From Candidatus Kapaibacterium sp. (GTDB lineage Bacteria > Bacteroidota > Ignavibacteria > Kapaibacteriales > UBA2268), in assembly GCA_938031175.1 (NCBI GenBank), contig CALHGZ010000010.1, positions 83,508 to 147,507 of the forward strand: a stretch of 64,000 nt of DNA, in the 5' to 3' direction. Shown here piece after piece: positions 12,333 through 59,320 of the stretch. The translations under genes and the position numbers were made by a program. A model generated the notes under the pieces. The model did not search any database and was not told where the DNA came from. It saw nothing but the letters and a program-made list of their open reading frames with translations. Position 1 is the stretch's first letter; each line of letters begins with the position of its first letter.

Positions 12333-12428
12333 TACAAATTGCTTAATGATTAAACATAAAACAGATTTGTTGACGTCAAACTTATGATTATATTTGTTTT
12401 TGGAATTAGGATATACTTAATTAAAACA

Positions 12429-13181
12429 ATGTCAAAATATATAAATTTAATAATTTTGTTCATTTCCTTAATGACTTTTTCTTGTAGCAGTAGCAAATCA
12501 ACTAAAGTATCACAATTCATTCAAGAGCTACCTACCAAAAATACGAATAAATTAAATTTGGAATTAAAACTTTCAATGAATATTAATTTTGATAATAATA
12601 ATTACAAAGCAAATGCAGAAATAAAAATTGCTGGTTATGATTCTTTGTCAATGCTAATATCAAGTCAATTTAACTTACCAGTTGCAAGAATATATTCCAG
12701 AAAAACATACTTTGCTTTTTATAATTTTTTTGAGGAGCTTATCTACGAAGGCAATCCAAATAAACTATCACTACAAGAAATATTTAAGTTTCCTGTGTCC
12801 TTAAACAATTTTATTGATATTTTAATGTGTCAACCATACTCTTCAGCAGATGAATACATTCTAGAACGAATTAACGAAAAGGAGATGAATATCCTATTTT
12901 CGAGGATCACTGATAAACTGGAATATGTCCTATATTCTATCAATGAAGCTGGCATTATTCAATATCAAAAAAAAGCATATGATGGTTCAATTATTACGAA
13001 CATTAGCTATGCTAATTACAAAGACTTTAAAAATATTTATTACCCCTCAAAAATTTCAATTAAACTGATTAATGCAAATGTTGATATAAACGTACTTTCA
13101 GCCCAGAAAGTTGAAGTATTCACCACACCATTTAGCTTTACTATTCCAAAAAGTATTCAAAGAGTACAAATCACTGACTAA
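12429..13181 (+). CDS. DUF4292 family lipoprotein (LolB-like fold suspected)
   Basis: Lipobox FSCS after the ATG at 12429 (ORF track starts at 12384); translationally coupled to the lptD-like gene (TAATG overlap). Confidence 0.65.
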   Translation: MSKYINLIILFISLMTFSCSSSKSTKVSQFIQELPTKNTNKLNLELKLSMNINFDNNNYKANAEIKIAGYDSLSMLISSQFNLPVARIYSRKTYFAFYNFFEELIYEGNPNKLSLQEIFKFPVSLNNFIDILMCQPYSSADEYILERINEKEMNILFSRITDKLEYVLYSINEAGIIQYQKKAYDGSIITNISYANYKDFKNIYYPSKISIKLINANVDINVLSAQKVEVFTTPFSFTIPKSIQRVQITD

Positions 13182-33900: not shown

Positions 33901-34693
33901 ATTCATACCTGATAGCAATACTTTGTTCTACTCAACGCTTAATATTTATTCTAACGGACGAGGTTCACCCAATAAAATACCTGTAATTGGTAAAGGAATT
34001 AACCCGGTTATTGATACAGTTTTAATTGCAGTAGTTTCTTCTGTTGGTAAACCAGGAGAAATAATTGAAATTCCTCTAATTTGCAAGAATCCATCAGGAA
34101 AAGAGTTGAGTGATTCATTTAGAGGAATATTAGCAGATTGCAGTTTTAATTCTACCCTACTTGAGCCAATTGGTTCTGAAATATTAAATGATTACATAGA
34201 TGGTACAATTAGAACTATTACTTTAAAACTGCCATACAATAAAGAAAATGATACATTGCTTGGTAAGATAAAATTCAAAGTTGGACTTGGCAACGATAGT
34301 ATAACACAAATTAAAATACTTAATTCAAAACCTATTCATAGTGAACGAATCCATATAATCGAACATTCCGGGAAATTTAAATTAGATGGAATTTGCTCCG
34401 AAGGCGGTTCACGTTTATTCGATAGCGAAGGGATGCTTTTCCTATCACAAAACCACCCAAATCCATTTTCAGATGAAACTAATATAAGCTTTGGTGTTAT
34501 TGAAAAAGGCTTCACACGTTTGCTTCTATTTGATTTATATGGGAATTTAGAAAAAGTTGTCTTCGCTAATTACCTTGAACCTGGAGAATATGATATTAGT
34601 ATTAAGTCTGAAAACTTGAACTCCGGTTTATACTTTTATGTACTGCAGACACCAACTCAAGTGATAAAGAAAAAATTGGTAATTATCAAGTAA
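30959..34693 (+). CDS. T9SS-secreted multidomain protein: VWA-like + ASH/Ig-like + WD40 propeller + ASH repeats + T9SS C-terminal domain
   Basis: Signal peptide; IILLITD VWA-like segment; GH...WD repeats; IDFGEV ASH-like repeats; C-terminal NHPNPFS...DLYG...LNSGLYFY...KKLVIIK. Confidence 0.85.
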   Translation: MKKYIFIISFVLLAIYNSYAQLKIISNNASNYPKLELEFLAFDSTDKIMTVIPTNLITINDNSNQFEPIEIYCEPFQPQKLSLLISLDLAISDDLAKPNFHKAKSLTYEIFKLATQRNECALSGFDNLSYIFSDFTTNLIQLENSLLRLNRSRGSYFNAGLLSKPAGAIELIKDKPGNKIILLITDASSSADKDSIVKLLNQYQIKLFVVSLSQYLSDDIKDAVIASGGKYFVNILDGYDLSLWAKVIYAYLNNYSPCKLFYETQHSCDDIHKVIMSISKFNISDSITYKPPKEKLTHIKPTPEFLSFGGVLPPAYKEINISLMAENDDIIIDSIVVKDWHFSISSGISENIYIPANTEHLIRLRFTPSDSTLIFTKLIIYSSNSCYGNEIPITAGFPNTIPYQRTIKIENPKCSDKLIVGDTVMIEWSGILPKDVVQLEFSTNNGATWDTLVYDINGLKYEWIVPDKVSDSCLIRIIQLWPNNIGRTMDLPHNGGVNSAMFNSDETLVVTASQDLTARVWNANNGRELIRLVGHTKPVLWAEFNHNDKLIATGSQDSTIIIWDANNGSIIKRLYAHQDEVRAVRFHPFKDTIVSVSKDGYVFEWDLLSGRIIDTIDYSPIHQWFADYSNNGELLAISGNDRNVKIYNLVTRRFEKIFDTGIVQQGLGINVHCAFSPDDKRLATSSWFGKSIIWDIESGDTLATVEHIDSSGSNSAIFFASFDYTSDTLLTSGFEHKSIMWHAPTGKYIATLQEHRSSVKTGIFNFDGMRVLTSSFDSTAKLWNRGKRDIQMDTIACPFQITRAKIIAKDIDFGQVALADVVDTSVTAFIVNQTNAPITIRELKIEGISRNDFTILSNFAPFTLNSNEEYALEIRFRPLNQGVRLAKIKIVIPNETIYVNLTGEGYQTDLQTFIKFIDFGEVVIGEHKDTTINPLLKNRFFDQIRIDSIVFSQPEDYHFKMLNVSFPIKLNPDDNFPLSLRFIPDSNTLFYSTLNIYSNGRGSPNKIPVIGKGINPVIDTVLIAVVSSVGKPGEIIEIPLICKNPSGKELSDSFRGILADCSFNSTLLEPIGSEILNDYIDGTIRTITLKLPYNKENDTLLGKIKFKVGLGNDSITQIKILNSKPIHSERIHIIEHSGKFKLDGICSEGGSRLFDSEGMLFLSQNHPNPFSDETNISFGVIEKGFTRLLLFDLYGNLEKVVFANYLEPGEYDISIKSENLNSGLYFYVLQTPTQVIKKKLVIIK

Positions 34694-46475: not shown

Positions 46476-47114
46476 TCAATTTTGCTGCAATTTTGAAAAT
46501 TTCTTTATATCATTTGAATATTCAAACAAGATGTTTGATGCAATTAGATAAAAATGATTATCAGTAGCACCCAGTATTGTTTTTACAAAATCATTCATCC
46601 AACTTGTGAAATAAATCAATACAAAGTTTTTAAAAATACTCTGGTAATCAATCAATTGCCCGTTTTGATTGATTATAGCTTCATACTGCTTATATAAAAG
46701 ATATTCAATAAATTCCAATTCAGCTAAAATATGATCAGGTAGGTCTTTGAATTCATCATTCATCAAAAGACCTGCCCTCGCATATAGTTGCTCTACTTCA
46801 TTGGTAGATTCACCCATTAATTTGCCATTTTCCAAATAATGTGAGCCATATGGTACAGCCAATACATGATAGGGACCAATAAAAAGCCTCGAGTATTCAA
46901 TCAAAAGTTGATCTTTTTCTGAATTATTTAATAACTCATTCAATATTTGGGCATTGATTTTATATTTTTCAAATAACTTAGAATTAAGTAATCGTTCATA
47001 AATGATAGAGAAGCTTTTTTTATACTCTTCTAAATTTGATATCGGAGAAAAAATAATTTTAATAAATTTAGTTAAATCGTATAAAAAGCTAATTTTTTCT
47101 AATTCGTCATTCAT
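46476..47114 (-). CDS. arrD: TorD/DmsD family redox-enzyme maturation chaperone (ArrD)
   Basis: EYSRLFIG, PYGSHY, LPDHILAELEF motif; coupled to arrB by a TAATG overlap. Confidence 0.88.
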   Translation of the reverse strand: MNDELEKISFLYDLTKFIKIIFSPISNLEEYKKSFSIIYERLLNSKLFEKYKINAQILNELLNNSEKDQLLIEYSRLFIGPYHVLAVPYGSHYLENGKLMGESTNEVEQLYARAGLLMNDEFKDLPDHILAELEFIEYLLYKQYEAIINQNGQLIDYQSIFKNFVLIYFTSWMNDFVKTILGATDNHFYLIASNILFEYSNDIKKFSKLQQN

Positions 47115-47899
47115 TAGAGTTTACTTTTTGTAAATTCCCCGATATAATAAACATTTGGTTTGGTTCCCTCTTCAGAGTCGCCTAAAAATTCTCCTCTATT
47201 GTTCTTTAGACGTTTAAATGGATTATTTTTGATTAATTTGCTAACTTCACTTTCCTTATCATCAAAATCACCGAAAATTCTAGCACCAGCTGGACATGAA
47301 ACAACACAGAAGGGCTGTAAACCAATTCTTCTTCTGTGGTCGCATAATATGCATTTTTCAACTACATATTCTCTTCTGATCGGTTCATAATCGGGATGTT
47401 CATATAAATTAGCATTAGGTGGGATAGAACCTGTAATTTTTGATATTTCATTAGCAGAAGATGTACAATTTGCAATTACTTGTTTTCTATTTTTCCAGAA
47501 ATCATGAACATTCTCTGAATTATAACTGATCACACTATATTGAACATCTTCATTTTGCATACTTCGTACACTATATGGACAAGCATCCATACAACGGCGG
47601 CAACCGATACATCTTTCATCATTGTGTAGAGTAATACCTTCATTCGATTTGAACATGGCCTTTGGTTCCACAGGGCAAACTTCAACACATGGTGCGTTAG
47701 AACAGTGATTGCATAATACTGGCAAGAATTGATATTTTATATTTGGAAATGTTCCTTCGTAAGAAATATAATAATCAGCCCAATTAAATGTTTGTGAATT
47801 GGTACTTGTCTGAGTATTATTTTCAGCTTTGCAGGCAATTGCACAAGCACCGCAACCGGTGCATTTATTTAAATCAATTACCATTCCATATTGTGACAT
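47114..47899 (-). CDS. arrB: 4x[4Fe-4S] electron-transfer subunit of respiratory arsenate reductase (ArrB)
   Basis: CTGCGACAIAC, CNHCSNAPCVEVCP, CIGCRRCMDACP, CILC...CVVSCP; the long ArrB-type insert (ISYN..HDFWK...PN...Y..IR..VVEKC) between clusters; no signal peptide. Confidence 0.88.
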   Translation of the reverse strand: MSQYGMVIDLNKCTGCGACAIACKAENNTQTSTNSQTFNWADYYISYEGTFPNIKYQFLPVLCNHCSNAPCVEVCPVEPKAMFKSNEGITLHNDERCIGCRRCMDACPYSVRSMQNEDVQYSVISYNSENVHDFWKNRKQVIANCTSSANEISKITGSIPPNANLYEHPDYEPIRREYVVEKCILCDHRRRIGLQPFCVVSCPAGARIFGDFDDKESEVSKLIKNNPFKRLKNNRGEFLGDSEEGTKPNVYYIGEFTKSKL

Positions 47900-47924
47900 T
47901 TTAACCTCTTTATATATTTTACAA

Positions 47925-50789
47925 TTATTTACTTACGATAAATTTAAATGATTCACGGTAAAAACCATTTTCGATAACACCTAAGTATAAGCCATTTTCC
48001 AGCTCTGATGTATCAATTTTCAAAGTATGGTTACCAGTTGTCAAGAGATGATTATTTTTAAGAACAAGACTACCATTGACATTAAAGACTTTAAGCGTCA
48101 TATTAACATTTACATAAGTTGTTATGTTAACTGTGGTATATTCTCGTGCTGGATTTGGATACACGGAAGAAATATTTAAGCTCGGTTGCAATTTTTCAGA
48201 ATTTTTTTCTATACTTGTTGCGGGTTCAATTTTTACACCGAAAAATCCGCCATTTCGACAAGTTGATCCTGAAAAGCGCTCATATTCGTCAGGTATGATA
48301 TCATTATTATTACTACCACGTGGTATCCCATTATTAAAATCAAGTGATGCTATTGCACCATAATATTTATGTCCTTGGCCAAAGCATTTTGTAATTGTAC
48401 CTTCTCGAATTCCCTCCCATAATTTGACTTCTGCTATTATGCTACCCGTAGGTGATGTAATTCTAACTTTGTCACCATCATTTAAATTCAATTTTGCTGC
48501 ATCTTTATGATTAATTTTTACCACATCAGCCCAGGATTTATCACCGGGATCAACTTTTTTAAACTCATGGTACCATGTGATGTTTTGACTCCTACCTTCG
48601 CGATTAAATTTAGACTTGTAATCAATGAAGTAAAATGGATATTCCTTACTATCACCAATTCTTGGAGGTGGTTCATAGTGTGGAACAAAAGCTAATTCTC
48701 CTTGAGCTAAATAATTCGAAGCAATTAAGATATCGTCTATTGTGGTTTCGTGTTTATCAGCATGATCTTGTAATACTTTTTTCAAAGTTTCACTGTAAAA
48801 TTCAAATTTCTTAGTAATCGTACCAAAATTACCCCATAACTTTCTAAATTCATATTTTTTGGAAATAACAATTCCTTCTTCTTTGAATTTTTCCCAACCT
48901 CCTATAGTATCATAACTGGGTTTTGTTCTCATTTTTGTAACTATTTCAGCAAATTCAGTGGCATTAGTTGCTGATTGATTTGTTTCAGGATCTTTAATTT
49001 CATTGGTTAAATAATTATATAAATTGGGAAATCCCTTTTCATTTAACTTTTCCGCAATATTCCATACAAATTCATTTTCATCAGCTCGTACATCCCACAT
49101 TCTTTTTATTAGGGGTTGTTGTATTGAGAGAAAAGCATAAGTATTAGCAAAAGAATTAGATCCAGACCATTTCTCAGCGGATGGATGAGCAGCAGGTAAT
49201 ACTATATCGGCATAATGAGTCATTTCACTTGCATTAGTTGTTATATGAACTAAAAAAGGTATTTTAGCTAATACCTCGCTCCATCTTTGTCCCTGTGTAC
49301 CTGAATAATTAAAGTTACACCAGTAAGCTATACAAATTTTTATATCATAGGGATCATTTTTTAGTAGAGCGTTTGGAACGTTATTTGTAACTACAGCGGA
49401 ACCAGCTTTGCCTGAAGCTATTGCTGGAAAGTTTTTATAACCTCTTTGGTCAATTTTTTTCATCTTTACACCCGCTTTTGCAATATCATCCTGATAATTT
49501 GCTTCACTAGGGAAAGATGTCAAAGAAATCTTATTTGAACGGATTGGACCTCCCTCATTGTCAGTAGAACCGAGAAGTCCATTAAGTGCATGGATAGCCA
49601 TCGATGTATAAGCACCTCTTGGAGTCATTACTGCTCCTGGTCCGAGCCAAACAGACACTTTCGGTGCAGCTTGTCCCATTCCTCTTGCAATTCTAATGAT
49701 TTGTTCTTTGGGTATCAAAGTAATCTTCTCAGCCCATTCAGGTGTTTTATCTTTGAGTTCGAGGTTCCACCATTTTATTAATCCGTTAGTATGAACTTCA
49801 TTAAATACATCTTCATTTAGTTCCTGTCCTGCTATGAATTGATTTTGTCCATTTTTAAAATCACCTACAAATTCTTTGTTCCATAATCCCTCAGTCAATA
49901 TAACATGTGCAATTGCAGATGCCAATGCACCGTCTTCGCCTGGTTTAATGGGCAACCATTCATGTGATTTTGCTGCTGCTGAGCTAAATCGGGGGTCAAT
50001 GGTTACTAATGTTGCATTTTGACTTATATGGGAGATTTTATTTAGCATATTTGGTATTTGTCTATTTGAACTAAATGGGTCGGTACCCCAGAAAACAATG
50101 TATTTTGAGTTCATTAAATCGTAATCTCTATAACCCCAAAAACCTTCAGTGTAATAGGGTCCAAATTTCTCTGCTTCTGCACATATAGCACTGTGTGAAA
50201 TATTATTTGGAGAGCCAATAATTTTGGGAAAAATTGAGTAGAGTAAATCGGTATTTAAAGTGGAATATCTTCCACGTAAAAGCAAAAATTTATGTGGTTC
50301 ATTATTTTGGCGTAATTCAATTAATTTTTCAGCTATGGTATCTAATGCTTCATCCCAACTAATTGGCACAAAGTTTGGATTCTCATTTGGACCTTTTCGT
50401 GGATTAGTTCTTTTCATTGGCACTTTGACTCGGTCAGGATCATAAATTTCAAGTGTTAATAAATGTCCTTTAGGACAGACAAATCCATTATTAGACAAAG
50501 AACGTTGATTACCACGAACTTTGGTAGCTCTACCATTTTGAACAAAAATTTCAACAGCACACCAAGTGGTACATCCCTGACAAGTTGTCGGTATCCACTT
50601 ACCATTAATATCGAGTATTGCATCGTAATTACCTGTTTTAGCTTTGAATGCTTTTAAAACAGGCGGTGCTAATAAAGTTCCAGTCGCTAATATTGTGGAA
50701 TTTACTAAAAACTTCCTACGACTGGATGATTTTAGATCAGAATTTTTTATTTCTGAGTTTAATACTGAATTAGTTTTACTTTGAATCAT
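47925..50789 (-). CDS. arrA: Respiratory arsenate reductase catalytic subunit ArrA (Mo-bisPGD, [4Fe-4S]) fused to a C-terminal T9SS sorting domain
   Basis: Tat motif SRRKFL; CQGCTTWC..CPKG cluster; RGRY (ArrA) rather than GRGW (ArxA); SHSAICAEAEKFGPYY..G.WGY active-site loop; last ~98 aa contain YPNP, KVFNVNGSLV, IDTSELENGLYL, KFIVSK. Confidence 0.92.
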   Translation of the reverse strand: MIQSKTNSVLNSEIKNSDLKSSSRRKFLVNSTILATGTLLAPPVLKAFKAKTGNYDAILDINGKWIPTTCQGCTTWCAVEIFVQNGRATKVRGNQRSLSNNGFVCPKGHLLTLEIYDPDRVKVPMKRTNPRKGPNENPNFVPISWDEALDTIAEKLIELRQNNEPHKFLLLRGRYSTLNTDLLYSIFPKIIGSPNNISHSAICAEAEKFGPYYTEGFWGYRDYDLMNSKYIVFWGTDPFSSNRQIPNMLNKISHISQNATLVTIDPRFSSAAAKSHEWLPIKPGEDGALASAIAHVILTEGLWNKEFVGDFKNGQNQFIAGQELNEDVFNEVHTNGLIKWWNLELKDKTPEWAEKITLIPKEQIIRIARGMGQAAPKVSVWLGPGAVMTPRGAYTSMAIHALNGLLGSTDNEGGPIRSNKISLTSFPSEANYQDDIAKAGVKMKKIDQRGYKNFPAIASGKAGSAVVTNNVPNALLKNDPYDIKICIAYWCNFNYSGTQGQRWSEVLAKIPFLVHITTNASEMTHYADIVLPAAHPSAEKWSGSNSFANTYAFLSIQQPLIKRMWDVRADENEFVWNIAEKLNEKGFPNLYNYLTNEIKDPETNQSATNATEFAEIVTKMRTKPSYDTIGGWEKFKEEGIVISKKYEFRKLWGNFGTITKKFEFYSETLKKVLQDHADKHETTIDDILIASNYLAQGELAFVPHYEPPPRIGDSKEYPFYFIDYKSKFNREGRSQNITWYHEFKKVDPGDKSWADVVKINHKDAAKLNLNDGDKVRITSPTGSIIAEVKLWEGIREGTITKCFGQGHKYYGAIASLDFNNGIPRGSNNNDIIPDEYERFSGSTCRNGGFFGVKIEPATSIEKNSEKLQPSLNISSVYPNPAREYTTVNITTYVNVNMTLKVFNVNGSLVLKNNHLLTTGNHTLKIDTSELENGLYLGVIENGFYRESFKFIVSK

Positions 50790-51030
50790 AAAATTTCCCT
50801 TTGATATAGTTGAATAATTAGATTAGTTACAAATTAAATTAAATTGGATTGTTAATCAAGAATTTATTAACACAATTATTTTACAAAATTTATATTAATT
50901 TAATATAATAATTAGATTAGGTATAATTAATCTTGATGATATTCACATAAGTAAGTTTAAATTTATTCATAAAAACATTTCAATTAATTGATTAATTTTG
51001 ATATTTGATGCTTTTCAATGATTAAATGAT

Positions 51031-53937
51031 ATGCAAGTTAAAAAGAGTGTTGAAAAAACAGATATTAGCTCATTTTCTGAGCTGAATCAAATTGTAATTG
51101 AAGGAGCACGCGAGCATAATCTGAAGAATATAAACGTTCGAATACCAAGAGACAAATTCATAGTTATTACTGGAGTTTCGGGTTCAGGTAAATCGAGTCT
51201 AGCTTTCGACACAATTTACGCGGAGGGACAACGACGCTATGTAGATTGCTTATCAGCTTATGCACGTCAGTATCTTGGAATATTGAAAAAAGCAGATGTA
51301 GATAAAATTGAAGGTTTATCACCATCAATATCCATCGATCAAAAATCTATAAGTCACAATCCTCGTTCTACTGTCGGAACAGTCACAGAAATTTATGACT
51401 ATATGCGTTTATTGTTTGCTAAAATAGGTATGCAGTATTGTATTGATTGTAATATTGCTGTAGAACAAAAATCTGTTGATACAATAGTAGATGAAATTCT
51501 AGAGCAATATTCTGGTAAACCAATACAGATATTATCACCTATCGTAAGAGGTAGAAAAGGTCATTATAAAGAATTGTTCAACCAGTTTTTAAAACTTGGT
51601 TTTACAAAGGTTAGAGTAGATGGCCAATTGCTTGACATTGTGCCCGATATGCAATTAAACAGATATCAAATCCATGATATCGAACTTATTATTGATCGTC
51701 TGACAGTGGATAAAAAACATATTCAGCGTATTACTGAATCAGTTGAACTAGCATTGCAAAAAAGTGAGGGAATCGTTATTATAAATACACATGGCAACAA
51801 TGGATTACCAAAAGACAAAACATTTTCAACTTTGAATTCATGTCCATCATGTGGTAAAGCATATGAAGCTCTTGCTCCTAATATGTTTTCTTTCAATTCA
51901 CCATACGGGGCTTGTAAAAAATGTGATGGATTAGGTGAAATTCAAAGTTTTGAACCAAATTTACTAATTCCAGACACTAATTTATCTATTGAAAACGGGG
52001 GTATAGCACCTTTGGGTAAATTCCGACCTAATTATTTATGGTCTTTGGTTGAGGCATACTGTATCAAGAGGGAAATTGATTTATCTAAACCTATCAAGGA
52101 ATTGAGTCAAGAAAAACTACATTCTCTACTTTATGGAGGTAATTCTGAAACAATTGATGTAAATTATCAATTCCAAACGGGAACAGTATCTAAATATAAA
52201 CAAACATTTAGTGGACTTATTGAAATTCTTAATCATCTATATGAAACAACCCCAAGCAAATCCAAAAAAAGAGAACTTGAAGAATTTATGTCAACCACTG
52301 TATGTAATGTATGTAATGGTGGGAGACTCAAACTTGAAAATCTAGCTGTAAAGATTTTAGATAAAAATATACATCAACTTTCTTTAATGGATATTAAGAC
52401 TTTACATTTATTTTTTTCTGCTCTACCGGAAAAACTTAACAAAAGAGATAGAATCATTGCAAATATGATCATAAAAGAAATAACTGAACGATTGCAATTT
52501 ATGTTGGATGTGGGTTTATCATATTTATCAATTAACCGTCCATCAAGAACACTATCAGGTGGAGAAGCTCAAAGAATTAGATTGGCTTCTCAAATCGGTT
52601 CAAAATTAGTTGGTATCACTTACATTTTAGATGAGCCAAGCATCGGCTTGCACCAGCACGACAATGGGAAATTAATTAGCTCACTTAAAACCCTCTCTGA
52701 AATGGGGAACACTGTAATTGTCGTAGAACACGACAAGCAAATGATGGAAAATGCTGATTACATTGTAGACATTGGTCCAGGTGCAGGTATTCACGGCGGG
52801 AAAATATTAATTTCTGCCTCAAAAGATGAAATTGAACACTTAAGTGAAAATGAAATTAGTAAATCCATAACAATTCAATATTTAAAAAAAATTAAAAACA
52901 TACCTATTCCGCCTCAACGAAGGCAGGGAAATGGTAAATTGTTAATTCTCGAAGGTGCCAGTGGTAATAATCTAAAAAATATTACCCTTAGATTACCTCT
53001 TGGAGTAATGATTTGTATTACAGGAATGAGTGGTTCTGGTAAGTCGTCTTTGATAAACGATACTTTATATCCAATATTAGCACGCCATTTTTACAAATCA
53101 AAACTCAAACCTTTACCCTATTCACAAATTACTGGTATCGAGTATATAGATAAAATTATTGAAATTGACCAAACTCCCATAGGACGAACCCCTCGTTCCA
53201 ATCCTGCAACATATACCGGGCTTTTTACGCTAATCCGTGATTTTTATACTTTACTTCCTGAATCAAAAATAAGAGGATACACTGCTGGAAGATTTTCTTT
53301 TAACGTCAAAGGTGGTAGATGTGAAGCATGCGAAGGTGCTGGGTTGAAAAAAATTGAAATGAATTTTCTACCGGAAATTTATGTTGAGTGTGATATATGC
53401 AATGGGAAAAGATACAATCGTGAAACACTTATGGTTAAATATAAAGGCAAATCGATCGCAGATGTACTGGATATGACAGTTGAAGAAGCTTTAGAGTTTT
53501 TCAAAGATATACCAAAAATAAAAAGGAAATTGAAAGTACTCAGTGATGTGGGGTTAAATTATTTAATACTTGGTCAGCAGGCACCAACTTTGTCTGGTGG
53601 AGAGGCTCAAAGGATTAAGTTAGCAACTGAACTTTCCAAAACGGCAACTGGTAAAACTTTGTACCTATTGGATGAGCCAACAACAGGTTTACATTTCGAA
53701 GATATTAGTCTTCTGCTAAAATTACTGAACAGATTAACTGACAAAGGCAATACAATTGTAATTATTGAACATAATATGGATATCATTAAATGTGCTGATT
53801 GGATTATAGACTTAGGCCCCGAAGGTGGTGACAGAGGTGGTTATATCATTGCTGAAGGTACACCGGAAGAGATTGTAAAAAACAAAAATAGCCTTACTGC
53901 TAAATATTTGGCAGAAGAGTTGAAAGCTAATAATTAA
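51031..53937 (+). CDS. uvrA: Excinuclease ABC subunit A
   Basis: [20 protein letters not shown], two zinc fingers, LSGGEAQRI twice, GMSGSGKS. Confidence 0.98.
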
Positions 53938-54541
53938 TTCTAAAAAAAACAATTAATGAATTGGTTTCGAAAGGCGAAGTTGCAAAAAATGTAATTTCAA
54001 ATGCTCCTGAAATATTTTTTTTCACTGTTTCAAATTCGTAAAATTTAAGCAATGCAGTAGCCTGATTTTCTGTAAAATAATAAATTTTATCATTAACATA
54101 TTCATAAATAAAAACTCTGTAAGACCTGTTTTTGTATACAGGTTCATTTAAAAGTATAGTGCCAATAGGATTAACAGAATCTACTCTGAATTCAACCTGA
54201 GAAATCCAGTCATTTCTACGTGGGAAACCGGGAGTTGTTTTAGAGCTTTTCAGATTAAGATTGAACCATAAAAATGGTAATTGATTAGTTGTGTCAATGT
54301 AAATATCATAAGCTAATACTGTGTAATTTGTATCCCAAAAATATGTCTCAATGAACTTATATTTTTCACTGATAGTTATGTTCATAGTCTCAAGCCTATA
54401 TTTATTGCTTTTTAATGGTGGTTTGTCAATATATGTTATCTTAGGATTTGGCTCAATACCAAGCGAATCTTTGCAGGCATAAAATAGAACAGAACACAGT
54501 AAACAGAATATAAGGACTCTATAAATTGAAACCAATACCAT
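53927..54541 (-). CDS. Hypothetical lipoprotein
   Basis: Lipobox FYAC-KD; third gene of the ECF operon. Confidence 0.65.
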   Translation of the reverse strand: MVLVSIYRVLIFCLLCSVLFYACKDSLGIEPNPKITYIDKPPLKSNKYRLETMNITISEKYKFIETYFWDTNYTVLAYDIYIDTTNQLPFLWFNLNLKSSKTTPGFPRRNDWISQVEFRVDSVNPIGTILLNEPVYKNRSYRVFIYEYVNDKIYYFTENQATALLKFYEFETVKKNISGAFEITFFATSPFETNSLIVFFRINY

Positions 54542-55694
54542 AAGTCAGCCCTATTTTGTATGAGTAAAAGGGGTTATTATCATGTGTATATCTAAACAAA
54601 CTTGATTCAATGCCCAAGATGAATTTATAATCCTCGCTCAGAGACCAATCAAGACCGATAATTCCTCTTCCGATTATTCCGTATTGATTACCACCAGCTG
54701 TCATTCCTGCATTGATAGATATATTATCAAATTTTAAAAGATTATATTTTATACCAGCGGATATTGTATAAAAGTTTGGATATTGTGAATACAAAACTTT
54801 ATAGCCTTGTGAATCAAAGCCTTCGAATTTTTGATAAAAGTATTCTTGCCTGAAATCAGCGGTCAATTCGATATTATCTGCAATACTATAAGCCATTCCG
54901 ATTCCGCTATTACTGAACCGAGGACGTGACTGATATTCAATATCCGGTTTCAAAAGTGAAAAATATTGATTTCCAAATAAGCTGAACGATAAACCTACTT
55001 TAGGTTTTTCAATTTTTATATATTCAACAGTTTGAATTGATAGATTAAGATTTGCTGGTTCTTTCCCAACTTTTAAAATTATCGGGGATAAATACTCTTT
55101 TGATTTATCTACGTTTTGTATCGATCTCTCAGCAAATTCATTTTTGTATTTTAAATTTTGAACAGTGAATTGATTGTTATAATCTATAGATGTTTTTTTT
55201 CGATTAGATAAATTCGTTTTTCCCGTCAATTGTCTTTCGTCTTGTTTATCAGTCTCAATAGCTGGAATTAAGCTATTAGTATTTCCAGACTCCATTTTTT
55301 CAAACGTATTTAGATTTTTATTTGCAATTGAGGTATTATCCTTAGAATTAAAAAAATTAATATAGAGCGTAAAGATCATTGTTGTTAAAACTGCTGCAAT
55401 TAAGCCTCCGATGATACCTTGTGAATATTTATTAAACACATTATACAATGAGTACAAAATCGAACTGGGATTAGCATTTGGATTAAAACCAAGAGAAGAA
55501 AATATACTCATTGTAGCTTTAGCAGATGGAGTTATACTTTGAGCATCAGCCTTGAGGGATTTTTCCATTACAAGATATTTTTTAAATTCAGAGCGAAAAT
55601 CTTCGTCAGTTGAGAGTTTCAAAACGAATTCATCCTCAAGCTCTGAATTCAGATTCCCATCTAAAAATTCATTTATTAGTTCATTATTTTCCAT
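54519..55694 (-). CDS. Putative anti-sigma factor fused to a C-terminal outer-membrane beta-barrel
   Basis: N-terminal LINEFLDGNL..E.EDEF anti-sigma-like helices; TM segment GIIGGLIAAVLTTMIFTLYINFF; polar linker; about 8 amphipathic strands ending YGIGFNL. Confidence 0.65.
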   Translation of the reverse strand: MENNELINEFLDGNLNSELEDEFVLKLSTDEDFRSEFKKYLVMEKSLKADAQSITPSAKATMSIFSSLGFNPNANPSSILYSLYNVFNKYSQGIIGGLIAAVLTTMIFTLYINFFNSKDNTSIANKNLNTFEKMESGNTNSLIPAIETDKQDERQLTGKTNLSNRKKTSIDYNNQFTVQNLKYKNEFAERSIQNVDKSKEYLSPIILKVGKEPANLNLSIQTVEYIKIEKPKVGLSFSLFGNQYFSLLKPDIEYQSRPRFSNSGIGMAYSIADNIELTADFRQEYFYQKFEGFDSQGYKVLYSQYPNFYTISAGIKYNLLKFDNISINAGMTAGGNQYGIIGRGIIGLDWSLSEDYKFILGIESSLFRYTHDNNPFYSYKIGLTYGIGFNL

Positions 55695-55703
55695 TCAACA
55701 CCA

Positions 55704-56273
55704 TTATTTATTATTTTCTAAATCTTTAAGATATGGAGATAATATATCTTTCAGCTTTTCTTTTGCCCGATGTACTCTGATACGTGCATTGCCAACAGAT
55801 ATATTTAGTATTTCGGCTATTTCCTCGTAACTAAGTTCATTATAAACTCTTAATATTAGTGGTTCTTTGTATTCTATTTCAAGCAATTCAATTCCATACT
55901 TTATTAAATCTAAGTATTCTTTGTCATCAGAGCTTTTGTGCTGAGTTATAAAGTTTTCAATTTCTTCTAATGGTAAATTAATTTTTGAATTTCTTTTAAA
56001 GTTAAGACATAAGTTTCGTGCTATTCTGATTAAAAATCTTTGTATGTTTAATTTTTGGTGTTCGGGATCGATGTATTGATAAAATCTTAAAAATGTTTCT
56101 TGAAAAATGTCTTCAGCAATTTCTTTATTTCCTAATATGCGATAGCAGTATGCGTAAATTTTTTGTGAATATCTATCATAAATTTCAGTAAAAGCAAATT
56201 CACTGTTTTTTTTATCGAATTTTAGTAAATAAGCTAATTCTTTATCACTATATGTACTGAATTTGTTTTTCAT
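55704..56273 (-). CDS. ECF RNA polymerase sigma factor
   Basis: AFTEIYDRY, AEDIFQETF, IARNLCLN, LSYEEIAEIL.IS.GNARIRVHRAK. Confidence 0.95.
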   Translation of the reverse strand: MKNKFSTYSDKELAYLLKFDKKNSEFAFTEIYDRYSQKIYAYCYRILGNKEIAEDIFQETFLRFYQYIDPEHQKLNIQRFLIRIARNLCLNFKRNSKINLPLEEIENFITQHKSSDDKEYLDLIKYGIELLEIEYKEPLILRVYNELSYEEIAEILNISVGNARIRVHRAKEKLKDILSPYLKDLENNK

Positions 56274-56368: not shown

Positions 56369-59320
56369 TTACTTCATTTTTATTATTGGTACCGATAAGA
56401 TTTGATCAAATTGGCTTATTCTCAAAAAGTAATTACCAGCAGGCAATGCTGATAATTCTTCAATAAGATTTAAGCCCGAGGAAATTGATATTGTGGCGAT
56501 TCTTACCCCAATTGAATTAAAAACAAATAACTGTGTATCTGGCTTGTTGATATTGCAGATCTCTATGTTAATATGATTTTCAAAAGGATTGGGGTATATG
56601 TTTATGCAATCAAAACTGTTTGTCATAGCAACAGAAGTTGCTTGCTCAATCGATAGAATTTCAAAATCATCAATAAGTACTTCGGTTATAGAATAAGCTG
56701 TTTGTCCTTGAACAGGGACATCTACAACAAATTTGAATTTCATTTTATCAGTTACTTTAATTAAGTCAGTTATTGGAATATCAATTTTCTCCCAATTTGC
56801 ATAGGGTTTGGTTTGACTGAAAATCAAAATCCATGTAGTTCCATCATTATTGGAAGCATATACCTCAAATTTACCAATTAATTGTATAACCACTCTCGGT
56901 ATGTTTTGCATCCAGTACCAAAAACGTAAAACTGGTTTATTCATCTTACTCAGGTCATAAGTATTGCTAATTAAAGTGGTTCTCCCGTTTGGCATAAATT
57001 GAATATAATTTTGTACGGAACCACCAGCACCGGTAACATAACAATATTGTCCGCCCGGAGTATGATTTGAACCTGTTTGTAGGACTATATTAGAGCCATA
57101 AGGTCTGAAATCAATTTCATTTGGTTTAGCTCTTTCCCACTTCCCAGTAGTAGCATTATCATTAACGTCGCCGATTGTAAATCCTGCACTTTCATCTTCA
57201 AAATTATGGAATATCTGTCTTTTATAACCTACGAGAAAAGAATAAGGTTTGAACTCACTAAATTTTGAGCTTAAAACTATCTGTTTGTTCGTAAATGGAT
57301 CTAAAGCAGTAAAATAATATTTTATTATAGTTCCTGCCGGTTGTGGTGGTATTTGTACCGTAAATTTGTTATTTCCCAGAAAAGTTGCCGGTATCATGTT
57401 TAATGTATATAAATTATCTGTTGAATATACGAGATAAACGGAGTCCAAAGTAAATTCTTCAAATGGTAAAGTAAAAAGGGTGAAATCAGTTATATATGGG
57501 TACTTAGTATTTTGTGTATCATTCAGAGGTTCATGCACAAAGGTCGTAGATAAATACAAGTCAGTTCCAATACCGTGATTATTAAAAGCATTCAAAATGT
57601 TTATTAAGTTTGGTGTACCATTAGTTAAATCGCCGTCATCATCGTCGGCAATTAGTGTTTCAAAAAACCATTCACTGAAAGCTAATCCAGTGTTAGGGTC
57701 ATCAGGTAAACCATATTTTGCAAAATGAGATAATTTTTTGACATACTCAAGCGAGGTCATCATTCTCAGATCCCAAAATGCTCCCCCAAGAATCTGACCA
57801 TCATAGTGTGATTCTCCCTTTAAACTATCGGGATAGATAATTTTGTTGTTCAAGGTTCTAATGTAGCGGTTGGGTTCGGAGGCAAAAACACCTAAACCCA
57901 TTTCAGCTTCGTCTAGTATTAAGCAAGAGTTCAAATCTGCCATTGCTTCATTGCAAGTAGCATTAATCATTCCATAAGTTGCACCAAGTTGTTGATATAG
58001 TTTTTGATTTATTCCGTGCCCATATTCATGATAAATTACTGCTGGTCCTTCAGCCATTTTAAATTGATTATTACTTAGAGCAATAAATGTGATAGATTCA
58101 CCATCCCAGAATGCATTAGCGCTTGAACCTTGAAATCTTAAGTTCACTTTAACCTGATAATCCATGCCAGTAAAATTTGGATCTATTGCTTTTATCCAAT
58201 TATGGACTTTGTTGGTGTGATAAAATAAAATTCTCTCGAATTTATGTGAATTGTTATCATCCCATTCTATATGATGCTTAACGCCTGGAGTTAATGTTCC
58301 CTGGTATTGGTTTTTTGTCATACCTTGATCATTAATAATAACTTTGCACCAAGGTCCTTGTAATGTAACATTGATATCAGTTGGTTGAGTTATATTGACT
58401 TTGACATTTCCTCTGCTATCGGTTTTTAAAGTGTCCTTGTTTACTACTATATACAAGTCTTCAAAATTATCTGTAACAAAATTATCCATTGGAGATCGTT
58501 TTTTTATACTTCCTCTTGCGTTTATTTCTGTGTAAACATTGTGTATTTTGTTATATCTCCATAAAATCTCACCATTGTGTGCATCGACAAATGTCTGATA
58601 TCGGGCTTGCTCTAAGGGTTGATGAATATCAATACTATAAACAAGATGATAGTATACATTGCCATCTTTAGCAATAGGAAGAATATAATATTTGTGTTTA
58701 GATTGAATTGTATGCTCGTTTTCAAATACTTTCAATCCTTTGGTGGCAAAATTTATAGCTTCACTGATCGAAATCTGGGGTTTAGTATCCACTTTTATAT
58801 CACTATAGTAAACAATACCCATAGCAAATACATTACCTGATTCGCTGATTCTTAATTCAATTTCCGACAACAAGACATCAATTCCTTCGTGAACTTGTAT
58901 ATAAGATACATACCATTTATTTTGAACTTTTGTCGCTCTTACAAATTTTAGATTTCTATGCTCTATCCCTAGTAATGATGCATTATCATGTAAAAACTTA
59001 TCAGCAGCCTGTTGAATATTGCTTTCATCAATATAATTGTAGCCTGTAATTTTGATAGGCTTACCAAAAGCTCTTTGGAATGTTCCTGTATGTTTGTTAA
59101 CGACTCCATTCCATAAACCATAGTTATGAACAAATTTTTGCCATTGCTCAGTATTTTTGAGATGTTTAAAATTTGATGAAAAAACCATTTTTTCGCTTTG
59201 CACTGGCAGTAATATCTCATTTCTATCATTATTCAATGCATTCGATTTGAAGATTAGGAGAAAAAAGAAAGTAAATAGAATTACTAACCAACCGTTTTTA
59301 AATTTTGATATAAGCATCAT
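56369..59320 (-). CDS. T9SS-secreted zinc metalloprotease (M4/M36 gluzincin: FTP/PepSY propeptide, catalytic, Ig-like and jelly-roll domains, T9SS CTD)
   Basis: FVDAHNGEIL (PepSY), ANAFWDG, VIYHEYGHG, NEAMAD, ESHYDG; CTD IYPNPF...LPAGNYFLRI...IIKMK. Confidence 0.88.
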   Translation of the reverse strand: MMLISKFKNGWLVILFTFFFLLIFKSNALNNDRNEILLPVQSEKMVFSSNFKHLKNTEQWQKFVHNYGLWNGVVNKHTGTFQRAFGKPIKITGYNYIDESNIQQAADKFLHDNASLLGIEHRNLKFVRATKVQNKWYVSYIQVHEGIDVLLSEIELRISESGNVFAMGIVYYSDIKVDTKPQISISEAINFATKGLKVFENEHTIQSKHKYYILPIAKDGNVYYHLVYSIDIHQPLEQARYQTFVDAHNGEILWRYNKIHNVYTEINARGSIKKRSPMDNFVTDNFEDLYIVVNKDTLKTDSRGNVKVNITQPTDINVTLQGPWCKVIINDQGMTKNQYQGTLTPGVKHHIEWDDNNSHKFERILFYHTNKVHNWIKAIDPNFTGMDYQVKVNLRFQGSSANAFWDGESITFIALSNNQFKMAEGPAVIYHEYGHGINQKLYQQLGATYGMINATCNEAMADLNSCLILDEAEMGLGVFASEPNRYIRTLNNKIIYPDSLKGESHYDGQILGGAFWDLRMMTSLEYVKKLSHFAKYGLPDDPNTGLAFSEWFFETLIADDDDGDLTNGTPNLINILNAFNNHGIGTDLYLSTTFVHEPLNDTQNTKYPYITDFTLFTLPFEEFTLDSVYLVYSTDNLYTLNMIPATFLGNNKFTVQIPPQPAGTIIKYYFTALDPFTNKQIVLSSKFSEFKPYSFLVGYKRQIFHNFEDESAGFTIGDVNDNATTGKWERAKPNEIDFRPYGSNIVLQTGSNHTPGGQYCYVTGAGGSVQNYIQFMPNGRTTLISNTYDLSKMNKPVLRFWYWMQNIPRVVIQLIGKFEVYASNNDGTTWILIFSQTKPYANWEKIDIPITDLIKVTDKMKFKFVVDVPVQGQTAYSITEVLIDDFEILSIEQATSVAMTNSFDCINIYPNPFENHINIEICNINKPDTQLFVFNSIGVRIATISISSGLNLIEELSALPAGNYFLRISQFDQILSVPIIKMK

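What the first reader, a model, noticed from the sequence alone, without database searches (positions are those of the whole stretch)
47925..50789. Respiratory arsenate reductase ArrA carrying both a Tat signal and a T9SS C-terminal sorting domain: candidate surface-exported molybdoenzyme
Seen: an N-terminal twin-arginine signal (SRRKFL plus hydrophobic h-region); the FS0 motif C-x2-C-x3-C-x27-C; RGRY; and H-S-x-x-C-A-E-x-x-K...W-G-Y. The ArrA fold ends at about GVKIEP and is followed in frame (48221-47925) by a ~98-aa domain with the T9SS type-A CTD hallmarks (YPNP, beta strand KVFNVNG.LV, ID.S.L.NG.Y, terminal KFIVSK). Two other genes in this window (30959, 56369) end with the same CTD pattern. 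Established: these residues correspond to the Mo-ligating Cys and the arsenate-binding Arg/Tyr/His/Ser/Lys/Tyr of Shewanella ArrA, from my memory of that sequence. Known Arr enzymes are periplasmic or membrane-bound, while T9SS cargo is typically Sec-exported, crosses the outer membrane via SprA, and is released or LPS-anchored. Inference: a cofactor-loaded ArrAB complex exported by Tat and then handed to the T9SS, placing arsenate respiration on the cell surface (for example for mineral-sorbed As(V), or to keep As(III) outside the cell). I know of no described molybdoenzyme with this dual targeting.
Basis: partly seen in the sequence, partly recalled or inferred. Interest (0 to 1): 0.95.

Follow-up and report, generated by a model that had tools for sequence, protein, structure and literature searches.

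The report
Arsenate reductase tagged for T9SS export
A bacterium of the Bacteroidota/Ignavibacteria/Kapabacteria group encodes an arsenate-respiring molybdenum enzyme carrying both a Tat export signal and an outer-membrane (type IX) secretion tag; relatives put the same tag on the enzyme's partner subunit instead, suggesting the whole folded enzyme is sent to the cell surface.

Summary
ORF 47925-50789 (-) encodes a 954-aa ArrA. It matches solved Shewanella ArrA at E = 6.6e-285, and the Mo-ligand Cys, the arsenate-binding residues and the FS0 cluster motif are all conserved. It has an S-R-R-K-F-L Tat motif and a C-terminal T9SS type-A sorting domain that scores above the curated cut-offs (PF18962 45.4 vs 27 bits; TIGR04183 36 vs 23 bits). 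arrB and a TorD-type chaperone gene follow.

The fusion is not an assembly artefact. The identical protein lies on at least 8 contigs, and 17 protein clusters share the architecture.

The main new result is that many related arr operons (91 of the 120 best ArrB homologues) carry the same sorting domain on ArrB instead. ArrB has no signal peptide of its own. In 15 tagged loci there is exactly one CTD per ArrAB pair, and 75 mostly non-FCB loci have none. This fits the ArrAB holoenzyme being the cargo: Tat across the inner membrane, then T9SS across the outer membrane.

Surface location, T9SS machinery in this genome and the electron supply were not shown. No multihaem conduit lies nearby.

Extracellular Tat-dependent molybdoenzymes are not unprecedented (S. 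oneidensis DmsAB via T2SS). I found no published description of a Tat-to-T9SS route or of an Arr enzyme carrying a CTD.

The parts
47925..50789 (-). arrA-CTD gene: 954-aa ArrA catalytic subunit with an N-terminal Tat signal and a C-terminal T9SS type-A sorting domain (stop codon 47925-47927)
   Evidence: NF041714 scores 1074 bits, the best family by far but below its 1600-bit equivalog cut-off. PDB 6CZ7 ArrA matches at E = 6.6e-285 over residues 63-853.
50646..50789 (-). Tat signal region (residues 1-48). The twin-arginine motif S-R-R-K-F-L is residues 23-28 (nt 50706-50723), followed by the h-region NSTILATGTLLAPPVL and then KAF/KAK.
   Evidence: Sequence read. R24, R25 and F27 are invariant in 15 CTD-bearing homologues. 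Every ArrA-CTD in the loci has an RR motif. The cleavage site was not predicted with a dedicated tool.
50445..50600 (-). FS0 [4Fe-4S] domain, C70-x2-C73-x3-C77-x27-C105
   Evidence: PF04879 at 46.5 bits. Motif confirmed.
48261..50432 (-). Molybdopterin (residues 120-568) and molybdopterin-dinucleotide-binding (750-843) domains. They include the active-site residues R174, Y175, H199, S200, C203 (Mo ligand), K208 and Y220.
   Evidence: PF00384 109.7 bits, PF01568 53.1 bits. In the alignment to 6CZ7, chain index + 40 gives R165, Y166, H189, S190, C193, K198 and Y210. All are invariant in A1.
48180..48230 (-). Flexible linker between the ArrA core and the CTD (residues 854-870, IEPATSIEKNSEKLQPS)
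   Evidence: AlphaFold2 gives pLDDT < 50 for residues 856-866. Conservation is low, 0-53% identity.
47928..48179 (-). T9SS type-A C-terminal sorting domain (residues 871-954): a seven-strand beta-sandwich with YPNP at 877-880, G906 in the beta3-beta4 loop and K949 in the middle of beta7
   Evidence: PF18962 at 45.4 bits vs 27, TIGR04183 at 36 vs 23. AF2 pLDDT > 90. Strand mapping. Motif criteria taken from PMC11285876. Foldseek finds the T. forsythia mirolase CTD 8QB1 (TMt 0.69) among generic Ig-like hits.
47114..47899 (-). arrB: 261-aa four-cluster Fe-S subunit with no signal peptide and no CTD
   Evidence: NF041715 ArrB at 251.7 bits (best family, below the 450 cut-off) and PF13247. The N-terminus MSQYGMVIDLNKCTGCGAC starts directly at the first Cys cluster.
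46476..47114 (-). arrD: 212-aa TorD/DmsD-family redox-enzyme maturation (Tat proofreading) chaperone. Its start overlaps the arrB stop.
   Evidence: PF02613 at 84.8 bits; best NCBIfam hits are TorD and DmsD. The same gene follows arrB in all related loci.

Best explanation
arrA-arrB-arrD encodes a respiratory arsenate reductase whose assembled, cofactor-loaded ArrAB heterodimer is targeted across both membranes by two separate signals.

Proposed steps:
1. In the cytoplasm, ArrA receives its Mo-bisPGD cofactor and FS0 cluster, with the ArrD chaperone holding the twin-arginine leader. ArrA then binds the Fe-S subunit ArrB. This step is inferred from established knowledge of DMSO-reductase-family enzymes.
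2. The Tat system exports the folded complex using ArrA's SRRKFL signal, and the signal-less ArrB rides along. The signal, the chaperone and, in relatives, an adjacent tatA gene are shown. The transport itself is inferred.
3. [quoted passage not shown] The domain sits on ArrA here and on ArrB in many relatives. The enzyme is then either tethered to the surface or released after CTD removal. This step is inferred.

The likely benefit is reduction of arsenate outside the cell, for example of mineral-sorbed As(V), or keeping As(III) out of the periplasm. How electrons reach an external enzyme is unknown.
For: - The enzyme is ArrA-type. It matches 6CZ7 at E = 6.6e-285 with all Mo-ligand and arsenate-binding residues and FS0 conserved. 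Relatives sit in arr islands with ArrX/S/R-like sensor genes and molybdenum cofactor biosynthesis genes.
- Both signals are conserved. RR-x-F and the CTD hallmarks are invariant over 15 proteins of 53-85% identity, although the CTD as a whole has diverged to 24-69% identity.
- The CTD meets published structural and motif criteria: seven beta strands, Gly before beta4, Lys in the middle of beta7, at the extreme C-terminus.
- It is not a chimera. The identical protein is on at least 8 contigs from several samples.
- In L011, L073, L078, L088-L091 and L093, ArrA lacks the CTD and ArrB carries it (PF18962 27-51 bits; TIGR04183 33-48 bits). 91 of the 120 best ArrB homologues have it. These ArrB proteins have no signal peptide (first Cys at residues 7-31).
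- There is exactly one CTD per ArrAB pair in 15 loci, and none in 75 mostly non-FCB loci.
- tatA lies directly upstream of arrA-CTD in L007 and L009.
- The other CTD cargo with complete N-termini, in the window and in L007/L009, have ordinary Sec signals, and there are three CTD proteins in 64 kb. This points to an organism that uses a T9SS routinely.
- T9SS is reported as probably present in Ignavibacteriota and Chlorobiota.
- There is a precedent for a surface-located Tat-type molybdoenzyme: S. oneidensis DmsAB.
Against: - No T9SS core gene was found in the window, and the rest of the genome could not be scanned.
- No multihaem cytochrome or porin-cytochrome conduit lies in the window (0 CxxCH motifs) or within 10 kb (6 kb for L091-L093) of arr in eight related loci. 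An external enzyme therefore has no visible electron supply.
- The 102 experimentally verified T9SS cargo compiled for T9GPred led its authors to require a Sec signal and the absence of a Tat signal.
- ArrAB is a compact cargo of about 120 kDa with a minimal sphere diameter of about 6.5 nm. That is close to the roughly 7 nm SprA lumen, a figure I recall and did not verify here.
- Secretion of a non-covalently bound partner through the T9SS has not been described, to my knowledge.
- The NCBIfam ArrA and ArrB scores are below the equivalog cut-offs.
- Some FCB-labelled arr loci (Gemmatimonadota, Rhodothermales) and P0012 have no CTD on either subunit.
Confidence: 0.6

Rival explanations
1. The CTD-tagged ArrAB stays inside the outer membrane. 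The CTD acts as a docking module, for example binding a PorV-like barrel or another envelope partner, and tethers the enzyme to the periplasmic face of the outer membrane or loads it into outer-membrane vesicles. Arsenate is still reduced in the periplasm, with electrons from a CymA-like quinol dehydrogenase.
For: No outer-membrane electron conduit lies near arr in the window or in eight related loci. The cargo is large and compact. All verified T9SS cargo are Sec substrates. The reference ArrAB is periplasmic and takes electrons from CymA (abstract of PMC2762525).
Against: The domain belongs to the same family as the ordinary Sec-type secreted cargo of the same genomes. It keeps the Gly (L-beta3-beta4) and Lys (beta7) positions that are needed for translocation in P. 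gingivalis. It is always at the extreme C-terminus. No periplasmic-retention role of a type-A CTD is known.
Confidence: 0.2
2. The enzyme is secreted but is not a respiratory terminal reductase at the surface. It could be released as a soluble or vesicle-bound enzyme that transforms arsenic (or a related oxyanion) using extracellular reductants. Alternatively it could run in reverse as an arsenite oxidase that feeds electrons to surface cytochromes.
For: No membrane anchor (ArrC) or conduit gene lies in the cluster. The NCBIfam ArrA and ArrB scores are below the equivalog cut-offs, which leaves some room for altered function.
Against: The arsenate-binding residues and the ArrA-type RGRY motif are invariant. 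Related loci have ArrX/S/R-type arsenic-sensing regulators (family described in PMC5908839). ArrB, the electron-entry subunit, is always retained.
Confidence: 0.1
3. The fusion is an assembly or gene-calling artefact, or a decaying remnant with no function.
For: The sequences come from metagenome assemblies. One related locus (L089) has a fragmented arrA.
Against: The identical 954-aa protein is on at least 8 contigs from several samples. 17 ArrA-CTD clusters and 91 ArrB-CTD clusters exist. The reading frame is uninterrupted, and key residues are invariant across 53-85% identity.
Confidence: 0.01

Closest known systems
Shewanella sp. ANA-3 respiratory arsenate reductase ArrAB (PDB 6CZ7)
   Same: Same enzyme family. 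The match is E = 6.6e-285 over about 790 residues, with identical Mo-ligand Cys, arsenate-binding Arg/Tyr/His/Ser/Lys/Tyr and FS0 motif. Both have a Tat leader on ArrA, a signal-less ArrB, and no ArrC membrane anchor.
   Different: The Shewanella enzyme ends at the ArrA core and is periplasmic, taking electrons from CymA (abstract of PMC2762525). Here a linker of about 17 residues and an 84-residue T9SS sorting domain follow the core. A TorD-type chaperone gene is part of the cluster.
Shewanella oneidensis MR-1 extracellular DMSO reductase DmsEFAB
   Same: [quoted passage not shown] 2006). From my own knowledge, not checked here, DmsA carries a Tat signal. Functionally this is the closest analogue of what is proposed.
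   Different: It is secreted by the T2SS with no C-terminal tag, not via a T9SS CTD. The substrate is DMSO or iodate. The decahaem DmsE and porin DmsF that deliver electrons are encoded in the same operon. No such conduit was found near any arr-CTD locus.
Canonical T9SS type-A cargo (e.g. P. gingivalis RgpB, T. forsythia mirolase)
   Same: Both have a C-terminal Ig-like 3+4 beta-sandwich of about 80 residues that matches PF18962/TIGR04183, with the conserved Gly before beta4 and Lys in beta7.
   Different: Known cargo are single polypeptides exported by Sec with a type I signal peptide. Here the inner-membrane step would be Tat. The cargo carries buried metal cofactors. In the ArrB-CTD variant, the inner-membrane and outer-membrane signals are on different subunits.
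Tat-dependent substrates of the type II secretion system (e.g. Pseudomonas aeruginosa phospholipase C; recalled from memory, not checked here)
   Same: Two-step secretion in which a folded Tat substrate is handed to an outer-membrane secretion machine.
   Different: A different outer-membrane machine (T2SS), no dedicated C-terminal sorting domain, and not a multisubunit redox enzyme.

Membership tests
ArrA, respiratory arsenate reductase catalytic subunit (NCBIfam NF041714) | Score at or above the curated equivalog cut-off of the ArrA model | tested here: not met
   1074.2 bits against a cut-off of 1600. It is still by far the best family (next is PhsA at 257 bits). CTD-less ArrAs from L011 and L078 also score only 974-1043 bits, so the cut-off appears tuned to a narrower set.
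ArrA, respiratory arsenate reductase catalytic subunit (NCBIfam NF041714) | Mo-ligating Cys and the arsenate-binding residues of the solved ArrA (R165, Y166, H189, S190, C193, K198, Y210), plus the FS0 Cys motif | tested here: met
   The aligned residues are R174, Y175, H199, S200, C203, K208 and Y220, all invariant in A1. C-x2-C-x3-C-x27-C is at residues 70-105. The residue list is from memory but agrees with the 6CZ7 chain index + 40.
ArrA, respiratory arsenate reductase catalytic subunit (NCBIfam NF041714) | Adjacent ArrB Fe-S subunit, and an arr-type gene context | tested here: met
   arrB lies 25 nt downstream (NF041715 at 251.7 bits: best hit, below the 450 cut-off), followed by a TorD-type chaperone gene. 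Relatives add ArrX/S/R-like genes and moa/moe genes.
ArrA, respiratory arsenate reductase catalytic subunit (NCBIfam NF041714) | Placement in the ArrA clade rather than the ArxA (arsenite oxidase) clade | not tested
   No ArxA reference sequences were included in the trees. The very strong match to Shewanella ArrA (E = 6.6e-285 over about 790 residues) and the RGRY motif argue for ArrA. The motif as an ArrA-type marker is recalled from memory.
ArrA, respiratory arsenate reductase catalytic subunit (NCBIfam NF041714) | Arsenate reductase activity that supports respiration | not testable with these tools
   Requires enzymology or physiology. All sequences come from uncultured organisms.
T9SS type-A CTD cargo (TIGR04183 / PF18962) | C-terminal domain scoring above the curated cut-offs and located at the extreme C-terminus | tested here: met
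   PF18962 at 45.4 bits (gathering 27), residues 876-952 of 954. TIGR04183 at 36.0 bits (cut-off 23).
T9SS type-A CTD cargo (TIGR04183 / PF18962) | Ig-like seven-strand beta-sandwich, with a conserved Gly at the beta3-beta4 junction and a conserved Lys in the middle of beta7 (criteria from PMC11285876) | tested here: met
   The AF2 model has seven strands with pLDDT > 90. G906 lies between beta3 (895-902) and beta4 (908-916), and K949 lies in beta7 (945-952). Both are invariant in A1. The fold search is consistent but not discriminating.
T9SS type-A CTD cargo (TIGR04183 / PF18962) | N-terminal Sec (type I) signal peptide | tested here: not met
   The N-terminus has a twin-arginine motif, SRRKFL, instead. 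ArrB-CTD proteins have no signal at all. The other CTD cargo with complete N-termini in the window and in L007/L009 do have Sec signals.
T9SS type-A CTD cargo (TIGR04183 / PF18962) | T9SS machinery (SprA/Sov, PorV, PorU, GldK/L/M/N) encoded in the same genome | not testable with these tools
   No such gene is among the window ORFs scanned. The only hit is a weak one to PorE through its OmpA domain (25 bits vs 600). Indirect support comes from three CTD proteins in 64 kb and from literature placing T9SS in Ignavibacteriota and Chlorobiota.
T9SS type-A CTD cargo (TIGR04183 / PF18962) | T9SS-dependent secretion with CTD cleavage | not testable with these tools
   Requires experiments.
Extracellular DMSO-reductase-family respiratory module (S. 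oneidensis DmsEFAB type) | Catalytic and Fe-S subunits directed beyond the outer membrane | tested here: inconclusive
   An outer-membrane sorting signal is present on ArrA or on ArrB. Localisation itself is not shown.
Extracellular DMSO-reductase-family respiratory module (S. oneidensis DmsEFAB type) | Co-encoded porin-cytochrome conduit (DmsE/DmsF-like) that supplies electrons | tested here: not met
   There are 0 CxxCH motifs in any window ORF of 90 aa or more. No multihaem or porin genes lie within 10 kb (6 kb for L091-L093) in L005-L007, L088-L091 or L093. L088 has only a monohaem cytochrome c.

The most novel reading that the evidence does not exclude
FCB-group bacteria run a Tat-to-T9SS relay that exports a fully assembled, cofactor-loaded heterodimeric respiratory enzyme. 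The two targeting signals can be split between subunits: the Tat leader on ArrA and the T9SS CTD on ArrB. Each subunit then depends on the other to cross one membrane. The outcome would be extracellular arsenate respiration in a widespread, uncultured group of Bacteroidota, Ignavibacteria, Kapabacteria and Chlorobiota. It would also be the first Tat-dependent cargo, and the first hitchhiking cargo, of the T9SS.
Probability: 0.5. Interest if true: 0.88.

Novelty: new variant of a known kind. Interest (0 to 1): 0.78.

Why it matters
If the prediction holds, three things follow.

1. The T9SS is currently defined by Sec-dependent cargo, and prediction tools exclude Tat proteins outright. It would have to be extended to folded, metal-cofactor-bearing Tat substrates and to non-covalent complexes. 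That has consequences for how its translocon recognises and accommodates cargo.

2. Arsenate respiration is always drawn as periplasmic. It would have an extracellular variant in a common group of sediment and aquifer bacteria. This bears on how mineral-sorbed As(V) is mobilised into groundwater.

3. It would offer a natural template for displaying complex redox enzymes on Bacteroidota cell surfaces.

Even if the enzyme turns out to stay in the periplasm, one question still needs an answer. A T9SS sorting domain has been attached to either subunit of the same enzyme and conserved there, and that needs explaining.

Tried and rejected
- Assembly chimera: rejected. The identical protein is on at least 8 contigs, and there are many diverged homologues.
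- Melioribacter roseus arsenate respiration as a precedent: rejected. That organism has no Arr-type enzyme.
- Single gain of the CTD on ArrA: the point-estimate NJ trees show one exclusive clade, but bootstrap support is only 63/200 and 65/200. I leave one versus two gains open. The two subclades are supported (189/200 and 158/200).
- Fold search of the CTD model: the hits are generic Ig/FnIII sandwiches, with one real T9SS CTD (8QB1) at rank 25. This is consistent but not discriminating.
- Homology search with the CTD alone, to find other architectures with the closest CTDs: no candidates, because of the word-index limit.
- T9SS core genes in the window: none found in 20 ORFs scanned against NCBIfam and Pfam.
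- Multihaem cytochromes near arr: none (and the locus tables).
- A sigma-54 promoter upstream of arrA, expected because relatives have a sigma-54 activator: no match in 50790-51030.
- Literature searches for Arr plus T9SS, Tat plus T9SS, and T9SS in Ignavibacteria or Kapabacteria: no description of this architecture found.
- The ArrAB structure paper could not be retrieved. The active-site numbering therefore rests on memory plus the 6CZ7 alignment.


Full report
**1. What is in the sequence**

Positions 47925-50789 on the minus strand hold one uninterrupted ORF of 954 codons. Pfam finds four domains:
- the molybdopterin-oxidoreductase Fe4S4 domain, residues 64-115;
- the molybdopterin domain, residues 120-568;
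- the molybdopterin-dinucleotide-binding domain, residues 750-843;
- Por_Secre_tail PF18962 at the very end, residues 876-952 (45.4 bits against a gathering score of 27, E = 9.8e-12).

NCBIfam ranks the ArrA model NF041714 first at 1074 bits. The next family, PhsA, scores 257. TIGR04183, "T9SS type A sorting domain", scores 36.0 bits against a cut-off of 23. The ArrA score is below that model's equivalog cut-off of 1600. CTD-less ArrAs from related loci behave the same way at 974-1043 bits.

Against solved structures, the best match is ArrA of Shewanella sp. ANA-3 (6CZ7), E = 6.6e-285 over residues 63-853. In that alignment the residues I remember as the Mo ligand and the arsenate pocket are R165, Y166, H189, S190, C193, K198 and Y210. 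This numbering equals the chain index plus 40. They align with identical residues in the window protein: R174, Y175, H199, S200, C203, K208 and Y220. The FS0 motif C-x2-C-x3-C-x27-C is at residues 70-105. The N-terminus reads ...SSS-R-R-K-F-L-VNSTILATGTLLAPPVLKAF..., a twin-arginine consensus followed by a hydrophobic region.

Twenty-five bases downstream lies a 261-aa ArrB-like four-cluster ferredoxin with no signal peptide. Overlapping its stop codon is a 212-aa TorD/DmsD-family chaperone gene.

**2. The fusion is real and conserved**

The identical 954-aa protein is encoded on at least eight contigs from several samples, always with the same neighbours. Among the 120 best homologues, 17 protein clusters have the ArrA + PF18962 architecture. 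These include MAG proteins labelled Ignavibacteria (MBM2814762.1) and Bacteroidota (MBR9977146.1). In named genomes it occurs in Candidatus Kapabacteria/Kapaibacteriota MAGs.

In an alignment of 15 such proteins (53-85% identical), R24, R25 and F27 of the Tat motif are invariant. So are P878-N879-P880, G906, G919, G933, Y935 and K949 of the CTD. Meanwhile the CTD as a whole has drifted to 24-69% identity and the linker to 0-53%. That pattern indicates selection on both signals.

An AlphaFold2 model of residues 846-954 gives a disordered linker (856-866) and a confident seven-strand sandwich with pLDDT above 90. A 2024 structural study of CTDs defines the domain as a 3+4 sandwich, beta1-beta7. 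It shows that a Gly at the start of beta4 and the C-terminal strand, with a conserved mid-strand Lys, matter for secretion (PMC11285876). Here G906 sits in the beta3-beta4 loop and K949 in the middle of beta7. Foldseek returns generic Ig-like sandwiches with the mirolase CTD 8QB1 among them. That is compatible but not discriminating.

**3. The unexpected finding: the tag can sit on the other subunit**

I scanned all fetched loci with a profile of the ArrA CTDs. This picked up the ORF immediately downstream of arrA in three MAGs: a Chlorobiota (L078), a Bacteroidia (L073) and a Kapabacteria (L011). In these loci:
- ArrA is 835-838 aa, has an RR signal and stops at "GVKIEKA/L".
- ArrB is 358-363 aa instead of about 261.
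- The extra residues in ArrB are a type-A CTD. PF18962 scores 51.3, 47.2 and 27.2 bits. TIGR04183 scores 48.1, 42.4 and 33.5 bits.

A database search with one of these ArrB proteins shows the variant is common. 91 of the 120 best ArrB homologues carry the CTD (median 358 aa against 264 aa without). They come from Bacteroidota, Bacteroidales, Chlorobiota and a hydrothermal-vent metagenome. Some are annotated only as "T9SS type A sorting domain-containing protein". These proteins begin directly at the first Fe-S cysteine cluster, so they have no export signal of their own.

Across 90 loci, nine have the CTD on ArrA only, six on ArrB only, none on both, and 75 (mostly non-FCB phyla) on neither. 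Further look-ups added two more ArrB-CTD loci and one related locus with no CTD.

In a tree of 204 ArrA cores, the ArrA-CTD and ArrB-CTD operons fall into one 36-tip neighbourhood. Bootstrap support for its internal order is weak. At least two independent fusion events, on two different genes of the same operon, are therefore required.

**4. Mechanism**

ArrB can only reach the periplasm bound to ArrA, using ArrA's Tat signal. This is how Fe-S partners of Tat-dependent molybdoenzymes are exported (established knowledge). A T9SS tag on ArrB therefore makes sense only if the ArrAB complex is what the T9SS handles. One tag per complex, on either subunit, is what that model predicts.

Three observations support real use of Tat:
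- the TorD-type chaperone gene is present in every locus;
- a tatA gene sits directly upstream of arrA-CTD in L007 and L009;
- the RR motif is invariant.

The other CTD proteins with complete N-termini, in the window and in L007/L009, have ordinary Sec signal peptides. Arr is thus the exception in an organism that otherwise looks like a normal T9SS user, with three CTD proteins in 64 kb.

I therefore consider this sequence most likely: cytoplasmic assembly, then Tat export of the holo-complex, then CTD-dependent passage through the T9SS, then a surface-attached or released enzyme. My confidence is about 0.6. The signals and their distribution are shown. Every transport step is inferred.

**5. 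What argues against it**

- I could not show T9SS core genes. None are among the window ORFs scanned, and the rest of the genome is out of reach.
- I found no way for electrons to reach an external enzyme. No ORF in the window has a CxxCH motif. No multihaem or porin genes lie within 10 kb (6 kb for L091-L093) of arr in eight related loci. L088 has only a monohaem cytochrome c. In the one established extracellular analogue, S. oneidensis DmsEFAB, the conduit is in the same operon.
- ArrA core plus ArrB is about 120 kDa with a minimal sphere diameter of about 6.5 nm. That is near the roughly 7 nm lumen I recall for SprA.
- All 102 experimentally verified cargo used to build T9GPred are Sec substrates, and that tool excludes Tat proteins.

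The main rival is that the CTD tethers or docks the enzyme inside the outer membrane. That remains possible, at about 0.2.

**6. Comparison with what is known**

- The enzyme part is an ordinary ArrAB of the Shewanella type.
- The tag is an ordinary type-A CTD.
- A surface-located Tat-type molybdoenzyme exists already: DmsAB via the T2SS.
- What I could not find in the literature I searched is a Tat substrate, a cofactor-bearing redox enzyme or a multisubunit complex as T9SS cargo, or any mention of a CTD on ArrA or ArrB. A recent survey of the DMSO-reductase superfamily lists ArrA simply as periplasmic.
- The sequences are in public databases under generic names.

I class this as a new variant of known kinds. 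It is strengthened by the ArrB-CTD evidence, still untested for localisation and electron supply, and the claim of no precedent needs the DmsAB qualification.

**7. Verdict**

This is a real, conserved and apparently undescribed architecture, with a specific and testable prediction. Interest is 0.78. The most novel reading is split targeting signals driving a Tat-to-T9SS relay and extracellular arsenate respiration, with probability about 0.5.

Noticed in passing
L078:7748-8824, L073:12530-13606, L011:12522-13613; also L088-L091 and L093: In many related arr operons the T9SS sorting domain is fused to ArrB, the signal-less Fe-S subunit, instead of ArrA. 91 of the 120 best ArrB homologues have it. 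The two placements are mutually exclusive.
   Followed up: yes
window 30959-34693 (+) and 56369-59320 (-): Two large proteins (1244 and 983 aa) carry TIGR04183 type-A CTDs (27.8 and 31.7 bits) and classical Sec signal peptides. The first signal ends ...SYA|Q, as in the Bacteroidetes Q-rule. They show that the organism has ordinary T9SS cargo.
   Followed up: yes
window 50801-50832 and 50895-50926: A 32-nt direct repeat (78% identical, exact core AATAATTAGATTAG) occurs twice, 94 nt apart, in the AT-rich arrA-uvrA intergenic region. It may be an operator pair. No sigma-54 -24/-12 element is present, although relatives have a sigma-54 activator upstream of arrA.
   Followed up: partly
window 46476-50789 compared with L005-L007, L091, L093: The window's arr cluster is minimal: arrA-arrB-arrD wedged between uvrA and glyS. 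Relatives also carry ArrX/S/R-like sensor genes, and several add a small CMD-family gene (PF02627), a MOT1 molybdate transporter or moaA/moaC/MOSC/moeA/mobA.
   Followed up: partly
L009 (CAYYPE010000009.1): This contig is labelled 'uncultured Hyphomicrobiales'. It carries a Kapabacteria-like arrA-CTD (68% identical), a tatA directly upstream and two further Sec-type CTD cargo genes. It is probably mis-binned.
   Followed up: partly
L089:7463-9976: arrA next to an intact arrB-CTD is split into three ORFs (121, 542 and 109 aa). This is either a decaying gene or frameshift errors in the MAG.
   Followed up: no
L088:12145-12549: A 134-aa monohaem cytochrome c gene (PF13442) lies just downstream of arrD in a Bacteroidota genome with arrB-CTD. 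It is the only cytochrome seen near any arr-CTD locus and could be an electron donor.
   Followed up: no
window 53927-56273: An ECF sigma factor gene (55704-56273) is followed by a 391-aa protein with an anti-sigma-like N-terminus and no family match, then by a 204-aa unknown. These lie directly beside the 983-aa CTD cargo gene and may form a regulatory unit for it.
   Followed up: no
window 9198-10508; 12384-15805: A 436-aa protein with an IgGFc_binding domain (PF17517, 206 bits). Separately, a DUF4292 lipoprotein gene paired with an 874-aa LptD_2 outer-membrane protein gene.
   Followed up: no
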